From positions 5,850 through 69,849 of IMG/VR virus record IMGVR_UViG_3300014043_000003: a stretch of DNA of 64,000 nucleotides, one strand, 5' to 3'. The translations under genes and the position numbers were made by a program. The first letter of the stretch is position 1, and the number at the start of each line of letters is the position of its first letter. This document shows positions 1,373-5,773 of the stretch, in pieces. The notes beneath the pieces were generated by a model that was not told the DNA's origin, ran no database searches, and worked only from the letters and a program-made list of their open reading frames with translations. The stretch comes from a virus. Taxonomy: Duplodnaviria > Heunggongvirae > Uroviricota > Caudoviricetes.

Positions 1373-1690
1373 AATAGTACCTCCCATATTCCGTCCCGCA
1401 AGTGCCTTTCGCTTCTCTCTGAATGGCACGAGGCATTTTCAGCTCCAAGAAAAAAGCCCCCTGCCAGCGTCATAATAATAACACAGGCAAAGGGCTTTTT
1501 CAAGTGTAAATATACACAAATAATAGTGTTTGATTTTGGTGATTTTATCCGGGATTTCGGCGGTTTCGCTGATCGACGGTTTGGCCGCATCTTAAGACTA
1601 ACTTGCAACTAACTTGCTTCAGTTGCAACCATGTTGCAAGTTGGCCTTGTATAACTATCGTGCATATTTTGCGAAAAGGCGCACGATAGG

Positions 1691-2647
1691 TCAAGCGATC
1701 CTCTCGATTTTCCGGTAATTTTCGAGAGAACTGTACGCTTTTTCGATGAACCTCCCGAACTCCGGGTTCTCACGGAACAGCTTGTAGAGGCTCTCGCCGC
1801 TGTTGTCGGTGATTGCGTCCATCATCTTTTCTGAGTTAGAGAAAGCTCCATATTCAGCGAGGGCAAACATGATGTGAAGCCAAAACGGTTCATTTACGAA
1901 CTGCTTTTCTGTGCTGTATCCGCACAAAGCGCCCAGGATCTCTTCGTACTCCATCTCAACACCACACTGGGCGATAATGTTTATAATGGAGTGAAAGTCC
2001 TCGTTCATTTTTTGTGCCCTATATCGGATTGCACTTTTGGAGCCCTCGGGGTTTCCGTTTTTGGCCGCCATCAGGTAGGTCTTGCTGCCTTCTGCGACGC
2101 AGATACCGCCGGCCCTTCGAAGGTCCTTTCTTGTATCGTCGATGATCGCGTTTGCTTTCTTCGCGCTTCTTGGGTACAGAGACGAAACGCTCGTGTTAAA
2201 GCTCTCCATGTTGACCTGCCCAGTGACTTTCAGCTCCTCAATGAGCCGACTGCGCAGTTTGTTTACGATCTCATCCTTCTCCTCTTCAGCCAATTTGTCT
2301 CCAATTTCCCGCTTGTAGACTTGGTCGATCGTGAGTCCCTGGGAGCACATACGTATATAGTGGTTTCGCTCTTTCTCGCCCATCTCATAGAGCCATTTTG
2401 CAACGGCACGCTGTTCCTTCCTGCGAAGCTGCTCAATGCCGTCAAGCTCCGCCACTCTCACAAGGGCCTCTGCTTCGAGCTGTGCATATTGGACAGACAT
2501 CTCGTGGAAAGTCTCGTTTGCCTTGAGTGCTTCCCCGAGAGCGTTGATTTTGTTGACTTTCTTGATGAGGTCTCGCAGATCAACAGTCTGCCGTATACTG
2601 TCCAGATCGAACATTCTGTCCCTGATCGCAATCTCGTTATTTGCCAT
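1691..2647 (-). CDS. Hypothetical protein (318 aa) immediately adjacent to CRISPR array 1
   Basis: Long clean minus-strand ORF with no recognisable catalytic motif. It ends next to a 9-bp-stem hairpin at 1653-1689 and starts 27 bp from the degenerate terminal repeat of array 1. Confidence 0.5.
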   Translation of the reverse strand: MANNEIAIRDRMFDLDSIRQTVDLRDLIKKVNKINALGEALKANETFHEMSVQYAQLEAEALVRVAELDGIEQLRRKEQRAVAKWLYEMGEKERNHYIRMCSQGLTIDQVYKREIGDKLAEEEKDEIVNKLRSRLIEELKVTGQVNMESFNTSVSSLYPRSAKKANAIIDDTRKDLRRAGGICVAEGSKTYLMAAKNGNPEGSKSAIRYRAQKMNEDFHSIINIIAQCGVEMEYEEILGALCGYSTEKQFVNEPFWLHIMFALAEYGAFSNSEKMMDAITDNSGESLYKLFRENPEFGRFIEKAYSSLENYRKIERIA

Positions 2648-2673
2648 ACTACCTCCTTGATTTATATATTCTT

Positions 2674-2903
2674 ACTCTGACTTTGCACGCTTGCGCGAGT
2701 CACATCCGGGAATTGGAGGACGACAAGCGCCAAATGATTCTCTGACTCTGCACGCTTGCGCGAGTCACATCTATGACGCTGGCGGGGGCCTTTTTTCTTG
2801 GGTTTCTCTGACTCTGCACGCTTGCGCGAGTCACATCTGGAAACGCCCCTGCAAAGATTGATGGAAGCCATCTCTGACTCTGCACGCTTGCGCGAGTCAC
2901 ATC
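2674..2903 (-). CRISPR. CRISPR array 1: four 33-bp repeats (consensus on the + strand TCTCTGACTCTGCACGCTTGCGCGAGTCACATC) and three spacers of 32-33 bp
   Basis: Repeats at 2674-2706 (degenerate, 2 mismatches), 2739-2771, 2805-2837 and 2871-2903, with unique spacers between them. The strand was inferred from the degenerate repeat at the low-coordinate (trailer) end and a conserved leader-like flank (GGCAAATTTGCACAA) at 2904+. The orientation is not certain. Confidence 0.8.
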
Positions 2904-3135
2904 GGCAAATTTGCACAATATCTATCGCGCCGCTTTATGCAATTCGCGCTTTATTCGCAGTTGCGCAAGCAATGCCTACTCTGTAGACCACGCCTTTTTC
3001 GTGGAACACTACCGGCTTCTTACGCCTATTTCGGTGCGAACGCATAGGCTTTTACTCATTGTTTACGGTTCGCACCTCGCCGGGGTCAGCCTCCGGCGAT
3101 TTATATTACTTTACTTCTTTCACATTGTCTCTTCT
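2904..3135. ncRNA. Conserved structured non-coding module flanking array 1 (candidate leader and/or tracrRNA-like scaffold), ending in a hairpin plus T-run
   Basis: It is homologous to 3437-3605 and 5296-5466: a shared AGCAAAnnGCACAA start, a shared 'caccg.tttct.acgcctatttcg' block and a stem that covaries between copies (ccacg/cgtgg here versus ctacg/cgtag in copy 2). It ends with TCGCCGG-loop-CCGGCGA followed by a T-rich tract at about 3102-3135 (on the + strand). Confidence 0.35.
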
Positions 3136-3139
3136 GTTC

Positions 3140-3436
3140 ATATCATTTGGCGCACTCGCGCCGGTTGCGTCGGGGAGAGATAAGGAAACACCCCACCGGG
3201 ACCTTCTCTGGCCCTGCGCACTCGCGCCGGTTGCGTCGGAAATCCCAGAAAAGGAGGCCGACGATGGCATCCTCTGGCCCTGCGCACTCGCGCCGGTTGC
3301 GTCGGCCCATCCAGCAGGTGCTGCTGGCCTTTAAGGACTCTGGCCCTGCGCACTCGCGCCGGTTGCGTCGGAGGAGATCCGGGAGGAGCTGAGCGCCACA
3401 GATCTCTGGCCCTGCGCACTCGCGCCGGTTGCGTCA
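3140..3436 (-). CRISPR. CRISPR array 2: five 33/34-bp repeats (consensus on the + strand CTCTGGCCCTGCGCACTCGCGCCGGTTGCGTCGG) and four spacers of 32-33 bp
   Basis: Repeats at about 3140-3172 (the first 10 nt are degenerate), 3206-3238, 3272-3304, 3338-3370 and 3404-3436 (the last ends ..GCGTCAGC). Spacers are all unique. The repeat is related to but distinct from the array-1 and array-3 repeats (shared CTCTG..CTGC..GCGC core). Confidence 0.85.
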
Positions 3437-3605
3437 GCAAAAGTGTACAAAGACAGTTACGCTATTTTGTGCATTCAGACGCGAGTCTCAGTTGCGTGAG
3501 CGATAACTACCATGTGGTCCTACGCGGAGTTCGTAGAAACACCACCGTTTTCTCACGCCTATTTCGCTCGGCTTTCGTCGAGCATCGCTGGAGCCAGGTG
3601 CCAGC
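3437..3605. ncRNA. Conserved structured module between array 2 and the 3' end of the effector gene (candidate leader and/or tracrRNA-like RNA)
   Basis: It starts AGCAAAAGTGTACAAAG. It contains a repeat-like fragment GTCTCAGTTGCGTG, a stem CTACG-cggagtt-CGTAG that covaries with copy 1, and a perfect 8-bp hairpin ATCGCTGG-agccaggtg-CCAGCGAT followed by TCATTTATTT at 3571-3605. That hairpin has a + strand terminator-like geometry and lies directly after the effector stop codon on the opposite strand. Confidence 0.35.
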
Positions 3606-3616
3606 GATTCATTTAT

Positions 3617-5089
3617 TTACCCCGCTATAAGCGAGGGATAAAATGCTGCGTGGAGTATGTTAATGGCTGCGTTTACATCCTTGTCGTGAACAGTTTTGCA
3701 CTTTGGGCATCGCCAGTAGCGCGGAACGATGGATTTTCTTTCCATGATATGCCCGCAAGTGTGGCACGTTTTCACCGAAGGAAACCATTCATCGACGGCT
3801 ACGACCTCTCTCCCGTGCCATTTGGCCTTATATCTGATATTGTCCAAGATTGTACTGATTGCCGAGTCCGCGAGAACTCTCGCTGTGTGCTTGCTCTGAA
3901 ATTTTTTCACGACATCCAGCGTCTCTATGCCGATCCTTCCGTTTTCCTGAACAATTTTCCTGCTGATGATATGATTTTCGTTGGCTCGCCTGCGCGCGAT
4001 TTTTCTTTCCAGTTTTGCGAGCTTGAGTCTTGTCCTCTCATAGGTTTTCGACGGGCGGATGGTCTTATCTTGCACGTGTGCCGCACGGAACTGCTCATTT
4101 GCCCACCCCCAACGGCGCGAAAGTCTCCTGCTCACGCGCCTTTTATGCCTCTGCTCCTGCTCCTTAAACCGTTTGTTCTGGAACTTCTCGTTATCAGAAA
4201 GAGTAACCAGGTCCTTTGCTCCCATCTTTATGCCGACTTCCTTGCCCACTTTTTTGCTCATCGGCTTGTAGACCGCATTGTGCAGCTTGAAGCAAATGTA
4301 GTAGCTGTCGCAGTTATCCTTGCTGATCGTAATGGTTATCTGCTTGCTTTTGTTCTCTTGGAGCCATTCAGGAAACTGCATTTTTCCTTCTGGGTCAAAA
4401 CGGATCTCCTGATTCCAGCCTTTGATTTTGCAGGTGCTTTCTTTGCCTTCGTCACCACAGTCGCTCAGCCTTGCAAGGCGCGCATACATTGCATTGCGAT
4501 TACTTTTTGTGAAAAATTTCGAGCATGGTTCTTGGTATGTATAGCTCATTCGAGGCTTTTCCGAGTTGTAATAGCTTGGCGCTCGGAGGCCTTTCATCTC
4601 TTCTTTAAGTGCATCTATTACTTTTTGGTCTGCTCCCCTTGAGCGAAGATCTCTGATCCTCTTTCTGAGGTGCTTTTTAAGCTCGATCATCTGTTTAGTT
4701 CGTTCAACTGGCATTACTACGTGCTTTCCGTCTTTTTTTCTGGGGGCCGAGAGCGCCCTTGCAAGATCGTACTTAATGCACCCTGCATTTCCTGTGATTG
4801 CATAGGCAGGAACCTCTTTAACGATGGGGTTTTCCTCCGTTATTTTTGCCTTCCACTCTTTTGCCGTGAGATAGCCAAAATTTGGGTAGTGAGGGTATTC
4901 GCCATTTTCATTCGGCTTATCATCCTGCTTTGAAGCTGCTGGATCATTCAGGACGGCGTACAGGCTGCAGTTGTAGGCAATACGGACACCGATGAGTATT
5001 CTGTCGATTTGCTCTCTCTGCTTTTTGTTCGGATAGAGCCGACATTTCATCGTGTAGTCCTCAATAAAATCGTATGTCATCTTTTCCAT
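3617..5089 (-). CDS. TnpB/Cas12f-like RuvC-domain RNA-guided effector candidate (490 aa). Its RuvC-I aspartate is replaced by lysine, while the RuvC-II glutamate, RuvC-III aspartate and the zinc finger are retained
   Basis: The N-terminus MKCRLYPNKKQREQIDRILIGVRIAYN matches the TnpB/OrfB N-terminal motif. The central segment ..VGIKMGAKDLVTLSDNE aligns to the TnpB 'GIDLGLK.LA.LSDG' motif with K at the catalytic-D position (the codon ATA-AAG was checked on the DNA). The segment RRLSRRWGWANEQFRAAH...RIGIETLDVVKKF carries the RuvC-II glutamate. The C-terminus CHTCGH...RCPKCKTVHDKDVNAAINIL is the zinc finger plus the RuvC-III D-x-N-A-A-x-N-I motif. The gene is flanked by CRISPR arrays on both sides. 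Alternative starts at 5080 (MTYDF, AAGGAG ribosome-binding site 9 nt upstream) or 5050 (MKCRLYP). Confidence 0.8.
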   Translation of the reverse strand: MEKMTYDFIEDYTMKCRLYPNKKQREQIDRILIGVRIAYNCSLYAVLNDPAASKQDDKPNENGEYPHYPNFGYLTAKEWKAKITEENPIVKEVPAYAITGNAGCIKYDLARALSAPRKKDGKHVVMPVERTKQMIELKKHLRKRIRDLRSRGADQKVIDALKEEMKGLRAPSYYNSEKPRMSYTYQEPCSKFFTKSNRNAMYARLARLSDCGDEGKESTCKIKGWNQEIRFDPEGKMQFPEWLQENKSKQITITISKDNCDSYYICFKLHNAVYKPMSKKVGKEVGIKMGAKDLVTLSDNEKFQNKRFKEQEQRHKRRVSRRLSRRWGWANEQFRAAHVQDKTIRPSKTYERTRLKLAKLERKIARRRANENHIISRKIVQENGRIGIETLDVVKKFQSKHTARVLADSAISTILDNIRYKAKWHGREVVAVDEWFPSVKTCHTCGHIMERKSIVPRYWRCPKCKTVHDKDVNAAINILHAAFYPSLIAG

Positions 5090-5128
5090 CTCCTTGCCGT
5101 AGCCTTGTTTTGTGGTTAAAAGCCGGGT

Positions 5129-5295
5129 CTCTCAGTTCCCGCACCTGCGCGGGTTGCGTCGCATACGTGGGTGCCTTTGCTCGGATGCTCAAAGGCTCTC
5201 AGTTCCCACACCTGCGCGGGTTGCATCGGAACTAAAAGAACTGGAGGAGGATCTGTAAAATGCTCTCAGTTCCCACACCTGCGCGGGTTGCATCA
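5129..5295 (-). CRISPR. CRISPR array 3: three 33-bp repeats (consensus on the + strand CTCTCAGTTCCCACACCTGCGCGGGTTGCATCG) and two 34-bp spacers
   Basis: Repeats at 5129-5161, 5196-5228 and 5263-5295 (the last ends ..GCATCAGCAAAA, the same terminus as array 2). The array sits about 40-50 bp upstream of the effector start codon, on the same strand if the minus orientation is correct. Confidence 0.75.
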
Positions 5296-5466
5296 GCAAA
5301 ACCGCACAAATCAGTGAGGAGCTTTTTGTGCAATCCGTGCATGGTGGAGATTGACCGAGCAATAGCTACTTTGTCTGCTGGCCTACGGCCATATTGACTA
5401 CCGCTTTCTCGATCTTTTCGGCTTACGCCGCGGCGTGGCTGAGTCTCACGCCGTTTTTATTCTTGA
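5296..5466. ncRNA. Conserved structured module flanking array 3 (candidate leader and/or tracrRNA-like RNA), ending in a hairpin plus T-run
   Basis: It starts AGCAAAACCGCACAAATC and shares the 'ctaccgctttctcgatcttttcgg' block with the other two copies. It ends with CGGCGTG-gctgagtct-CACGCCG followed by TTTTTATT at about 5436-5466. Confidence 0.3.
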
Positions 5467-5491
5467 CAAAACTATTTTTGCACACTATAAT
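5463..5491 (+). promoter_or_regulatory. Consensus sigma70 promoter TTGACA-N17-TATAAT driving the divergent HTH gene
   Basis: TTGACA at 5463-5468, a 17-nt spacer, then TATAAT at 5486-5491. An AGGAGGTG ribosome-binding site lies at about 5512-5519 and a TTG start at 5525. Confidence 0.7.
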
Positions 5492-5524
5492 TTGTGTATA
5501 TAGACCACCATAGGAGGTGATATT

Positions 5525-5773
5525 TTGGCGATTATATGGAAAGTTGACCCTGTCGAGCTTCTGAAATCAGCGGGCTACAGCTCGTACCGCATCCGGCAGG
5601 AGAAGATTTTTGGTCAACAAACGTACCGCAACCTTCGTGAGCGGCGGCCAGTCGGTTTTGATGCTCTGAATACAATCTGCAAACTCACAAAAAAGAAACC
5701 CGGTCAACTCCTTGATTACGTCCCTGACAGTAAGCTCCCTCCAAAGGAGCAGGAGACTATCCCTGCTCCTTGA
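5525..5773 (+). CDS. Small HTH (Cro/CI-type) DNA-binding protein, paralogue of 6600..6833
   Basis: 82 aa from a TTG start with a strong ribosome-binding site. The ...YRNLRERRPVGFDALNTICKLTKKKPGQLLDYV segment resembles the ENIDTICSILNCQPGTLIRF HTH of its paralogue. It is transcribed divergently from the CRISPR locus. Confidence 0.55.
   Translation: MAIIWKVDPVELLKSAGYSSYRIRQEKIFGQQTYRNLRERRPVGFDALNTICKLTKKKPGQLLDYVPDSKLPPKEQETIPAP

What the first reader, a model, noticed from the sequence alone, without database searches (positions are those of the whole stretch)
2904..5466. Each array is followed by a homologous structured module with covarying stems and a terminator-like hairpin: candidate tracrRNA or scaffold RNA
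The regions immediately + strand-downstream of each array (2904-3135, 3437-3605 and 5296-5466) all begin AGCAAA(A)nnGCACAA. They share a 'caccg.tttct.acgcctatttcg(g)' block. They contain a stem that changes by compensatory substitutions between copies (ctacg...cgtag in copy 2 versus ccacg...cgtgg in copy 1). Each ends in a strong hairpin followed by a T-rich tract on the + strand (TCGCCGG/CCGGCGA at about 3102; ATCGCTGG/CCAGCGAT at 3571-3605; CGGCGTG/CACGCCG at 5436-5466). Copy 2 also contains a collapsed repeat-like piece (TCTCAGTTGCGTG), which is what a tracrRNA anti-repeat remnant would look like. So the whole unit of array plus structured RNA plus hairpin has been triplicated with divergence. 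The strand of transcription is ambiguous. The conserved leader-like start and the co-orientation of array 3 with the effector favour minus-strand arrays. The T-runs give the hairpins a + strand terminator geometry.
Basis: seen in the sequence. Interest (0 to 1): 0.7.

Follow-up and report, generated by a model that had tools for sequence, protein, structure and literature searches.

The report
Three tracrRNA genes beside three arrays
The three repeated "modules" are diverged copies of the guide-scaffold RNA (tracrRNA) of a recently described miniature TnpB-derived CRISPR nuclease family (TranC). Each copy is matched by base-pairing to the repeats of its own small CRISPR array, and all three serve one phage-borne effector that has lost a catalytic residue.

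Summary
Three homologous structured modules (window 2904-3102, 3436-3610, 5295-5456) each abut a mini CRISPR array.

- **Strand and family.** A covariance model built only from 29 foreign loci hits exactly these three places, all on the minus strand (99.9, 62.6 and 44.4 bits). The arrays and a 490-aa effector (3617-5089) lie on the same strand. The effector's best solved relative is LaTranC (E 1e-60). So the modules are tracrRNA genes of a LaTranC-type system.
- **The "terminator-like hairpin".** It is the 5' stem-loop of the RNA. Five loop bases pair with repeat positions -8 to -4. They covary with the repeat unit by unit: CTGAC/GTCAG, CTGGC/GCCAG, CTCAG/CTGAG here. Across 32 units 96.9% of cells pair.
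- **The T-tract.** The "+ strand T tract" is the A/T-rich 5' flank on the minus strand.
Partly right: tracrRNA and the minus-strand leaning hold. The terminator reading and the "anti-repeat remnant" do not.

Beyond the known family, three deeply diverged tracrRNA-plus-array cassettes (49-60% identical) serve one effector. That effector alone among 120 homologues has Lys in place of the RuvC-I catalytic Asp. This is a new variant of a known kind, of moderate interest.

The parts
5295..5456 (-). tracrRNA module M3 (unit 3, upstream of the effector). Hairpin 1 spans 5431-5453, with the anti-repeat loop pentamer CTCAG at 5439-5443. A short stem 2 lies at 5419-5430. Helix Pa pairs 5408-5413 with 5354-5359. 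Stem 3 lies at 5380-5390. The post-Pa anti-repeat candidate is at 5343-5350. The junction motif is at 5295-5310.
   Evidence: Covariance model hit at 5346-5455, 62.6 bits, E 5.9e-13. The MFE fold reproduces H1, Pa, Pb and stem 3, z = -2.77. Coordinates.
5129..5294 (-). CRISPR array A3: 3 repeats (GATGCAACCCGCGCAGGTGTGGGAACTGAGAG) and 2 spacers of 35 nt. The last repeat ends about 40 nt before the effector start codon.
   Evidence: The repeat hairpin has a G.U pair on the minus strand, which would be an A.C mismatch on the plus strand, in repeats 1-2.
3617..5089 (-). Effector, 490 aa, a TnpB-like RuvC protein. Its closest solved relative is LaTranC. The RuvC-I motif reads GIKMG: Lys288 (codon 4226-4228) replaces the catalytic Asp.
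   Evidence: Pfam Cas12f1-like_TNB, OrfB_IS605 and HTH_OrfB_IS605. LaTranC E 1e-60. K288 aligns with D191 of ISDra2 TnpB. 119 of 120 homologues keep G-x-D-x-G.
3436..3610 (-). tracrRNA module M2 (unit 2), starting 7 nt after the effector stop codon. Hairpin 1 spans 3584-3608, with the loop pentamer CTGGC at 3593-3597. A short stem 2 lies at 3566-3583. Pa pairs 3552-3558 with 3494-3500. Stem 3 lies at 3520-3536. The post-Pa segment is at 3480-3491. The junction motif is at 3436-3451.
   Evidence: Covariance model hit at 3487-3609, 44.4 bits, E 1e-8. Fold (z = -0.71, not significant on its own). Coordinates.
3140..3435 (-). CRISPR array A2: 4 full repeats (GACGCAACCGGCGCGAGTGCGCAGGGCCAGAG), 4 spacers of 34 nt, and a terminal repeat that keeps only its first 22 nt (3150-3171).
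2904..3102 (-). tracrRNA module M1 (unit 1), the most complete copy. Hairpin 1 spans 3077-3099, with the loop pentamer CTGAC at 3085-3089. A long stem 2 pairs 3068-3076 with 3033-3041. Pa pairs 3019-3025 with 2963-2969. Stem 3 pairs 3000-3004 with 2988-2992. The post-Pa segment is at 2956-2960. The junction motif is at 2904-2918.
   Evidence: Covariance model hit at 2956-3101, 99.9 bits, E 1.2e-21. The MFE fold reproduces the consensus, z = -3.26, 0 of 200 shuffles as stable. Coordinates.
2675..2903 (-). CRISPR array A1: 4 repeats (GATGTGACTCGCGCAAGCGTGCAGAGTCAGAG) and 3 spacers of 33-34 nt. The last repeat ends about 25 nt before the ATG of the 318-aa ORF.

Best explanation
Each module is a tracrRNA gene of a LaTranC-type (TnpB-derived, "TranC") type V-like system. 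It is transcribed on the minus strand, in the same direction as the effector and the arrays.

**Fold.** The RNA core is about 150 nt, or up to about 195 nt counting to the array junction. From 5' to 3' it folds into:
- hairpin 1;
- stem 2, long in M1 and truncated in M2 and M3;
- a long-range helix Pa, which encloses a 3-bp helix Pb and a variable hairpin (stem 3).

Between the helices lie conserved single-stranded motifs (GAAATAGGCGTAAGAA, GGTAG, AGTAG, ATTGC). They presumably contact the protein.

**Pairing with the crRNA.** Five bases in the loop of hairpin 1 pair with positions -8 to -4 of the cognate repeat, just 5' of the spacer. This is a pseudoknot-type anti-repeat. The 4-12 nt that follow Pa probably pair with the 3' arm of the repeat as a second repeat:anti-repeat helix. 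Together these dock a repeat-spacer crRNA onto the scaffold, which the 490-aa effector binds.

**Three cassettes.** The three cassettes are old, diverged paralogues. Their loops and repeats have co-evolved, so unit 3 is orthogonal to units 1 and 2, while units 1 and 2 are partly cross-compatible.

**Shown versus inferred.** Shown here: homology, strand, secondary structure and loop-repeat covariation. Inferred: transcription start (an A/T-rich -10-like flank, or processing from an operon transcript), the mature ends, protein binding and the PAM (TTC).
For: 1. **Effector identity.** The effector's best solved relative is LaTranC, E 1e-60.
2. **Position and strand in relatives.** In about 30 independent relatives, a homologous module sits on the effector strand immediately 5' of an array. 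None lies on the other strand.
3. **Covariance model.** A model built only from 29 foreign units finds exactly three hits in the 64-kb window. All are on the minus strand, at 99.9, 62.6 and 44.4 bits. The same model also hits LaTranC-like loci at 29.4 bits, and finds nothing in the 20 ordinary-TnpB loci searched (L015-L080).
4. **Structure as a whole.** The consensus has 31 pairs. 89.5% of cells pair, against 73.2% in shuffles (0 of 500 shuffles reach it). There are 152 double-change cells against 43.9 in shuffles. Slid controls give 32-42%.
5. **Loop-repeat helix.** 96.9% of cells pair and all 5 pairs change on both sides. For example, column 22/275 reads UA 21, AU 5, GC 4, CG 2, with none unpaired. 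The window units read CTGAC/GTCAG, CTGGC/GCCAG and CTCAG/CTGAG. In a LaTranC-like locus the pair is TCTAC/GTAGA.
6. **Strand.** G.U pairs outnumber A.C by 56 to 23, and by 27 to 3 in hairpin 1. The degenerate or truncated repeats lie at the array ends far from the modules. Spacer 2 of A1 matches window 1441-1474 at 29 of 34 positions, with TTC immediately 5' on the non-target strand. TTC is the PAM reported for LaTranC (PAM from bioRxiv 10.1101/2025.09.28.678669).
7. **Single-sequence folds.** M1 and M3 reproduce the consensus, with z = -3.26 and -2.77.
8. **Second trans helix.** Module columns 162-165 covary with repeat columns 267-270: score 0.515 against 0.257 in shuffles, 0 of 500.
Against: - No expression data exist.
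- The consensus scan found no sigma-70 promoter on the minus strand in 2600-5600. Only weak -10-like boxes precede hairpin 1 in the window.
- M2 alone does not fold better than shuffles, z = -0.71.
- The second trans helix is confounded. The module segment is homologous to the 5' arm of a repeat, so some complementarity is expected without selection.
- RNAduplex energies for the short loops are not cleanly cognate-specific.
- M2 and M3 lack the long stem 2 that nearly all relatives have, so they could be impaired copies.
- The LaTranC guide RNA sequence itself could not be obtained. The link to the validated RNA therefore runs through loci whose effectors are 56-68% identical to LaTranC.
Confidence: 0.85

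Rival explanations
1. The modules are 3' trailers of plus-strand arrays, ending in Rho-independent terminators. On this reading the arrays are transcribed on the plus strand and each hairpin plus T-tract stops transcription.
For: The terminator scan flags the M1 and M3 hairpins on the plus strand: 9-pair stems followed by TTTATATT and TTTTTATT.
Against: - The number of terminator-like sites in the region equals the shuffle expectation, 4 against 4.1.
- No plus-strand gene lies upstream of the hairpins. That strand is antisense to the effector and the arrays.
- The hairpin loop covaries with the repeat, which a terminator does not require.
- G.U outnumbers A.C by 27 to 3 in this hairpin when read on the minus strand.
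- The family is found only on the effector strand.
- The TTC PAM geometry fits minus-strand crRNAs.

A secondary role in stopping antisense transcription cannot be excluded.
Confidence: 0.04
2. The modules are only duplicated CRISPR leaders, meaning a promoter plus integration signals for each array. They would have no function as RNA.
For: - They lie directly upstream of the first repeat on the transcribed strand.
- A sequence-conserved junction motif (TTGTGCAnnTTTTGCC) abuts the first repeat across the family.
- The degenerate repeats are distal to the modules.
Against: - Four helices plus the loop-repeat helix are maintained by compensatory changes.
- Stem 3 is conserved in structure but not in sequence.
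- In single-unit loci the module starts within about 10-90 nt of the effector stop codon, as TnpB-type guide RNAs do.

A leader role for the last 40 nt or so may coexist with the RNA function.
Confidence: 0.05
3. Each module is a complete transposon-type reRNA/omega-RNA with its own fixed guide. On this reading it acts independently of the arrays.
For: - After helix Pa the modules contain a same-sense, degenerate repeat ("repeat 0").
- In some relatives (L002, L003, L090, L010) that element is followed directly by spacer-like sequence, as in a fused guide RNA.
Against: - In the window, the fossil repeat has lost complementarity to the hairpin-1 loop. Family-wide, only 56% of cells pair, no better than shuffles: 489 of 500 shuffles reach that value.
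- The loops track the real repeats instead (96.9%).
- The sequence after the fossil repeat is a conserved motif, not a variable guide.
- No TnpA or IS ends were seen in the 9.4-kb gene table.
Confidence: 0.05

Closest known systems
LaTranC / TranC systems (transposon-CRISPR intermediates; Jin et al., Cell 2025, doi 10.1016/j.cell.2025.09.004; PDB 9jfo, 9jfp, 9jfq)
   Same: - The effector is the best PDB match, E 1e-60 across three segments.
- The layout is shared: a tracrRNA gene immediately 5' of a small array of 32-nt repeats, on the effector strand. No adaptation genes appear in the 9.4-kb gene table.
- Loci whose effectors are 56-68% identical to LaTranC carry the same RNA architecture, including a loop/repeat pentamer complement.
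- A TTC lies next to the one protospacer-like match.
   Different: - The effector is only about 31% identical to the LaTranC-like proteins in the hit list, and it sits in a sister group.
- Three diverged tracrRNA-plus-array cassettes surround one effector, one upstream and two downstream.
- The RuvC-I Asp is replaced by Lys.
- The clade number (11) is inferred from a secondary source, bioRxiv 10.64898/2026.03.27.714800.
TnpB omega-RNA / reRNA (IS200/IS605, e.g. ISDra2)
   Same: - The RNA starts at or just after the 3' end of the nuclease gene, on the same strand.
- The scaffold has several stems.
- A pseudoknot forms between an upstream loop and the nucleotides just 5' of the guide. This last point rests on established knowledge of the TnpB and Cas12f RNA structures and was not tested here.
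   Different: - Here the guide part is supplied in trans by array-encoded repeat-spacer units.
- The fused terminal element survives only as a fossil.
- There is no transposase and there are no transposon ends.
Cas12f (type V-F) tracrRNA
   Same: - A long structured tracrRNA lies between the effector and the array.
- There are two repeat:anti-repeat contacts, one of which is a pseudoknot next to the guide.
- The effector is miniature.
   Different: - There is no sequence or covariance-model relationship: Rfam gave no hit, and Cas12f proteins match only at E 1e-2 to 1e-6.
- A preprint (10.64898/2026.03.27.714800) cites TranC clade 11 as monomeric.
Nuclease-dead TnpB/Cas12 derivatives (TldR, Cas12k, DNA-binding Cas12c/Cas12m)
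   Same: The effector lacks one RuvC catalytic residue, so binding without cleavage is the expected activity.
   Different: - Only one residue of the triad is changed; Glu389 and Asp471 are kept.
- There is no C-terminal truncation.
- Function was not tested.

Membership tests
TranC (LaTranC-type) tracrRNA-crRNA system | The effector is a TnpB-like RuvC protein related to LaTranC. | tested here: met
   LaTranC at E 1e-60, against TnpB at 1e-25. Pfam OrfB_IS605 plus Cas12f1-like_TNB.
TranC (LaTranC-type) tracrRNA-crRNA system | A CRISPR array with repeats of about 32-36 nt lies next to the effector. | tested here: met
   Three arrays of 32-nt repeats. The repeat-length range comes from bioRxiv 10.64898/2026.03.27.714800.
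TranC (LaTranC-type) tracrRNA-crRNA system | A separate structured RNA gene carries an anti-repeat complementary to the repeat. | tested here: met
   The loop pentamer pairs with repeat positions -8 to -4. 96.9% of cells pair over 32 units, and all 5 pairs covary. A second helix is supported but confounded.
TranC (LaTranC-type) tracrRNA-crRNA system | The RNA is homologous to the RNA encoded next to LaTranC-like effectors. | tested here: met
   Model R1 hits L119-L121 over its full length at 29.4 bits, E 1e-4, on the effector strand just after the gene. The same H1, stem 2 and Pa are present, with a TCTAC/GTAGA complement. The LaTranC RNA itself was not available.
TranC (LaTranC-type) tracrRNA-crRNA system | An intact RuvC catalytic triad, giving RNA-guided DNA cleavage. 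| tested here: not met
   Lys288 aligns with D191 of ISDra2 TnpB and with the Asp of GLDVG in LaTranC. 119 of 120 homologues keep the Asp. Cleavage itself cannot be tested here.
TranC (LaTranC-type) tracrRNA-crRNA system | The tracrRNA is expressed, processed and bound by the effector. | not testable with these tools
   No transcriptome or biochemistry is available.
Rho-independent terminator (plus strand) | A G+C-rich hairpin is followed by a T tract. | tested here: met
   M1 and M3 are flagged and M2 is not. The total count is not above the shuffle expectation.
Rho-independent terminator (plus strand) | It lies at the 3' end of a transcription unit on that strand. | tested here: not met
   No credible plus-strand gene lies upstream: that strand is antisense to the effector and arrays. 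The loop covaries with the repeats. G.U outnumbers A.C by 27 to 3 on the minus strand.
TnpB reRNA/omega-RNA (fused guide) | The scaffold is fused directly to a guide, and its terminal element pairs with the upstream loop. | tested here: not met
   Pairing between the fossil repeat and the loop is 56%, no better than shuffles. The fossil repeat is followed by a conserved motif rather than a variable guide.
TnpB reRNA/omega-RNA (fused guide) | The element sits within an IS200/IS605 element, with TnpA and transposon ends. | tested here: inconclusive
   No TnpA appears among the called genes of the 9.4-kb locus L105. The neighbours are phage-like: RusA, ArdC-N, HTH. Transposon ends were not searched for specifically.

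The most novel reading that the evidence does not exclude
A phage carries a naturally RuvC-inactivated TranC (Asp to Lys at catalytic site I). On this reading it works as a programmable DNA-binding or silencing protein rather than a nuclease. It would be loaded from three co-evolved, partly orthogonal tracrRNA/crRNA cassettes. Its role would be to repress competing phages or its own genes. One spacer has a PAM-flanked 29/34 match in the phage's own intergenic region upstream of the ArdC-like gene.
Probability: 0.3. Interest if true: 0.75.

Novelty: new variant of a known kind. Interest (0 to 1): 0.55.

Why it matters
TranC systems were described only in 2025, as the step at which a transposon guide RNA split into tracrRNA and crRNA. 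This locus adds several things to that picture.

- **The anti-repeat by covariation.** Covariation locates the contacts that hold the two halves together in this clade: a 5-nt loop pseudoknot plus an adjacent helix.
- **A fossil of the split.** The locus keeps a fossil of the fused repeat inside each tracrRNA.
- **A natural specificity experiment.** One protein is served by three scaffolds only 49-60% identical to each other, each matched to its own repeats. This bears on tracrRNA-crRNA specificity. If the scaffolds are active, they are ready-made orthogonal scaffolds for multiplexing a miniature effector.
- **A possible fourth route to binding-only effectors.** If the unique loss of the catalytic Asp is functional, it would be another independent route from a TnpB-type nuclease to an RNA-guided DNA binder, this time inside a phage.

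Tried and rejected
- **Rfam.** At gathering thresholds there was no hit anywhere in the window.
- **Viral contigs.** A single-protein scan of viral contigs found nothing. An alignment-based scan was needed.
- **Pairing with the fossil repeat.** Pairing of the hairpin-1 loop with the fossil "repeat 0" was rejected: 56% of cells pair and 489 of 500 shuffles do as well.
- **3' hairpin as terminator.** A 3' hairpin (TTGCAnAAA...TTTGTGCAA) followed by TTTTGC forms in the three window copies. It could be a tracrRNA terminator, but it shows no covariation in the family: 59.8% against 58.9% in shuffles. This remains unresolved.
- **Promoters.** No minus-strand consensus promoter was found in 2600-5600. 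Only weak -10-like boxes precede hairpin 1.
- **Spacer targets.** There were no matches in 50,697 phage records. Three spacers gave no match in IMG/VR.
- **Loop energies.** RNAduplex energies of the isolated loops were too noisy to show cognate specificity.
- **Literature.** The primary TranC paper is not in the library. No supplement with the LaTranC guide sequence is held. A literature search found no description of multiple tracrRNA cassettes. This does not prove absence.


Full report
**What is there**

The left end of the window holds three small CRISPR arrays of 32-nt repeats with a 65-67 nt period:
- A1, 2675-2903, 4 repeats;
- A2, 3140-3435, 4 full repeats plus a truncated one;
- A3, 5129-5294, 3 repeats.

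A 490-aa ORF on the minus strand (3617-5089) lies between A2's module and A3.
- It carries the Pfam domains Cas12f1-like_TNB, OrfB_IS605 and HTH_OrfB_IS605.
- Its best solved relative is LaTranC (PDB 9jfo), E 1e-60. ISDra2 TnpB follows at 1e-25 and Cas12f proteins at 1e-2 to 1e-6.
- LaTranC is the structurally characterised member of the "TranC" transposon-CRISPR intermediates (Jin et al., Cell 2025). Reviews PMC13565253 and PMC13639567 summarise these as TnpB derivatives whose ancestral guide RNA has split into tracrRNA and crRNA.

The neighbours are phage-like: RusA, ArdC-N/MPTase and HTH proteins. No adaptation genes appear in the 9.4-kb gene table of an identical contig from another sample.

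**Checking the observation**

The three modules flank the arrays exactly as described. Read on the minus strand, the order is:

M3 - A3 - effector - M2 - A2 - M1 - A1

The shared block, the covarying stem and the three terminal hairpins are all in the sequence. The common start motif is only approximate. The copies are old: their cores are 49-60% identical and their repeats 62-69%.

**Relatives**

About 100 full-length homologues of the effector exist at 33-46% identity. I fetched loci from IMG/VR, from genomes (Ruminococcus, Faecousia, Oscillospiraceae) and from metagenomes.
- In nearly every locus the effector stop codon is followed by a conserved module of 180-270 nt and then by an array, all on the effector strand.
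- An nhmmer profile finds the module only on that strand and always immediately 5' of an array.
- Among the closest relatives, L106 (46% identity), L107-L109 and L096 have two cassettes, one upstream and one downstream of the effector. The window and the identical contig L105 have three.

**Formal test of family membership and strand**

I built a covariance model (R1: 147 positions, 26 pairs) from 29 foreign units, leaving out the window copies.
- It hits the 64-kb window three times, all on the minus strand: 2956-3101 (99.9 bits, E 1.2e-21), 5346-5455 (62.6 bits, E 5.9e-13) and 3487-3609 (44.4 bits, E 1e-8). The only plus-strand match scores 9.4 bits and lies inside the palindromic stem 2.
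- It hits loci whose effectors are 56-68% identical to LaTranC over its full length at 29.4 bits, E 1e-4. These hits lie just after the gene.
- It finds nothing in the 20 ordinary-TnpB loci searched (L015-L080).

**Structure**

I analysed an alignment of 32 units, each a module joined to its cognate repeat (A2). The proposed structure has these elements:
- hairpin 1;
- the base of stem 2;
- long-range helix Pa;
- a 3-bp helix Pb;
- a pseudoknot between the hairpin-1 loop and the repeat.

- 89.5% of cells pair, against 73.2% in shuffles (0 of 500 shuffles reach it). Partners slid by 1-3 columns give 32-42%.
- 24 of 31 pairs change on both sides. There are 152 double-change cells against 43.9 in shuffles.

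The MFE folds of M1 (z = -3.26) and M3 (z = -2.77) reproduce the consensus. M2 alone is not distinguishable from shuffles, z = -0.71.

**The anti-repeat**

Five loop bases are complementary to repeat positions -8 to -4, and they change together with the repeat.

| Unit | Loop | Repeat |
|---|---|---|
| Window unit 1 | CTGAC | GTCAG |
| Window unit 2 | CTGGC | GCCAG |
| Window unit 3 | CTCAG | CTGAG |
| L082 | CGCAA | TTGCG |
| L084 | CACAA | TTGTG |
| L012 | CCCAA | TTGGG |
| L010 | TTCAA | TTGAA |
| L094 | CACGA | TCGTG |
| L106d | CTCGC | GCGAG |
| LaTranC-like L119 | TCTAC | GTAGA |

Over the 32 units, 96.9% of cells pair and all five pairs covary.

A second contact is also supported. The 4 nt after Pa pair with the repeat bases just 5' of the pentamer: covariation score 0.515 against 0.257 in shuffles, 0 of 500. 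In M2 and M3 this contact extends to about 8-13 bp with the cognate repeat. I treat it as probable only, because that module segment is homologous to a repeat arm.

**Fossil repeat**

After Pa each module carries a same-sense, degenerate copy of a repeat. In some relatives this copy is still followed directly by spacer-like sequence. This looks like the ancestral fused guide RNA.

Its pentamer no longer matches the loop: 56% of cells pair, no better than shuffles. Selection therefore acts on pairing with the array repeats, which means on action in trans. It now forms the 3' strand of Pa.

**Strand and the T tract**

Four independent lines put the RNA on the minus strand.
1. Homologues occur only on the effector strand.
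2. G.U pairs outnumber A.C by 56 to 23 overall, and by 27 to 3 in hairpin 1.
3. The degenerate or truncated repeats lie at the array ends distal to the modules.
4. Spacer 2 of A1 matches window 1441-1474 at 29 of 34 positions, with TTC at 1438-1440 immediately 5' on the non-target strand. TTC is the PAM reported for LaTranC (bioRxiv 10.1101/2025.09.28.678669).

The plus-strand T-run is the A/T-rich 5' flank of hairpin 1 on the minus strand.
- In the IMG/VR giant-phage group this flank carries a perfect TTGACA-16/17-TATAAT promoter.
- In most other relatives it carries -10-like boxes.
- In the window the boxes are weak, and the scan reports no minus-strand consensus promoter.

Processing from one operon transcript (M3 through A1 and on into the 318-aa ORF) is therefore equally possible. 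The terminator scan does flag the M1 and M3 hairpins on the plus strand. However, the count of such sites equals the shuffle expectation, and no plus-strand gene lies upstream.

**How it most likely works**

Each cassette supplies a tracrRNA and a few crRNAs. The crRNA docks through the loop pseudoknot and the adjacent helix, and the single effector binds the dual RNA. The conserved single-stranded motifs between helices are the likely protein contacts. They are kept in all three copies, although M2 and M3 have lost the long stem 2.

By pentamer complementarity, unit 3 is orthogonal to units 1 and 2 (2-3 of 5 pairs). The unit 2 loop can pair with the unit 1 repeat through one wobble.

The repeats of upstream cassettes in several relatives (L096u, 84% identical; L106u, 75%) resemble A3, and share the CTCAG loop with it. 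The upstream/downstream duplication therefore seems to predate the divergence of effectors that are now only about 46% identical, which argues that it is maintained.

**The effector is probably not a nuclease**

Its RuvC-I motif reads GIKMG. Lys288 (AAG, window 4226-4228) aligns with the Asp of GLDVG in LaTranC and with D191 of ISDra2 TnpB. All 38 aligned relatives keep the Asp, as do 119 of the 120 listed homologues. Glu389, Asp471 and the zinc-finger cysteines are kept.

The same protein occurs on contigs from two samples. The change needs at least two base substitutions, so it is not a sequencing slip. By established knowledge, replacing this Asp abolishes cleavage in TnpB and Cas12. The system may therefore act by binding alone. 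That is inference, not a result.

**Comparison and novelty**

The RNA is a member of the LaTranC-type tracrRNA family, and in that sense the finding is explained by known biology. Three points go beyond anything I could find described, although the primary paper is not held:
- the three-cassette architecture with co-evolved loop/repeat pairs around one effector;
- the covariation-defined pseudoknot anti-repeat;
- the unique catalytic substitution.

I rate it a new variant of a known kind, with interest 0.55.

Noticed in passing
window 4226-4228 (codon of Lys288 in the effector, 3617-5089, minus strand): The RuvC-I catalytic Asp (G-x-D-x-G) is replaced by Lys (GIKMG). It aligns with D191 of ISDra2 TnpB. 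119 of 120 homologues keep the Asp. The Glu and the third Asp of the triad are retained. The effector is probably nuclease-dead.
   Followed up: partly
window 1438-1474 (+), versus spacer 2 of array A1 (window 2772-2805): The spacer matches the phage's own genome at 29 of 34 positions, directly after a TTC (the LaTranC PAM). Mismatches fall at guide positions 2, 3, 4, 17 and 22. The site is a terminator-like hairpin in the intergenic region upstream of the ArdC-like gene. It could be an escaped self-target, a target in related phages, or a regulatory site.
   Followed up: partly
window 2904-2918, 3436-3451, 5295-5310 (minus strand): The junction motif TTGTGCAnnTTTTGCC lies immediately before the first repeat and is conserved in sequence across the family. 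A hairpin plus U-run can be drawn there, but it shows no covariation. Its role is unknown: tracrRNA terminator, processing site or leader signal.
   Followed up: partly
window 5463-5491 (+): A perfect sigma-70 consensus promoter (TTGACA, 17 nt, TATAAT) starts a few bases beyond hairpin 1 of M3 and points away from the locus, towards the small HTH ORF at 5525-5773. The tracrRNA 5' flank and this divergent promoter share the same A/T-rich stretch.
   Followed up: no
window 1691-2647 (minus strand): A 318-aa ORF with no Pfam hit starts about 25 nt after the last repeat of A1. It has homologues in the same position after the last array in L106 (38% identity, full length) and L107/L108 (31%). It may be a conserved accessory gene, or simply phage synteny.
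   Followed up: partly
L002, L003, L081, L090 (about 4452-4640) and L010 (4403-4600): In these relatives the module still ends in a repeat-like 3' half that is followed directly by spacer-like sequence before the regular array. This looks like a fused reRNA-type guide next to a CRISPR array.
   Followed up: partly
L011 and L092, 4895-5184: A second, unrelated array (repeat GTTTTAGAACCTTATGAAATCACATAGGTACTGAAC, 36 nt) lies just downstream of the TranC-type array in these giant-phage contigs.
   Followed up: no
window 3140-3171 (minus strand): The terminal repeat of A2 keeps only its first 22 nt. It lacks both tracrRNA-pairing segments. It runs into the A/T-rich flank of M1.
   Followed up: yes
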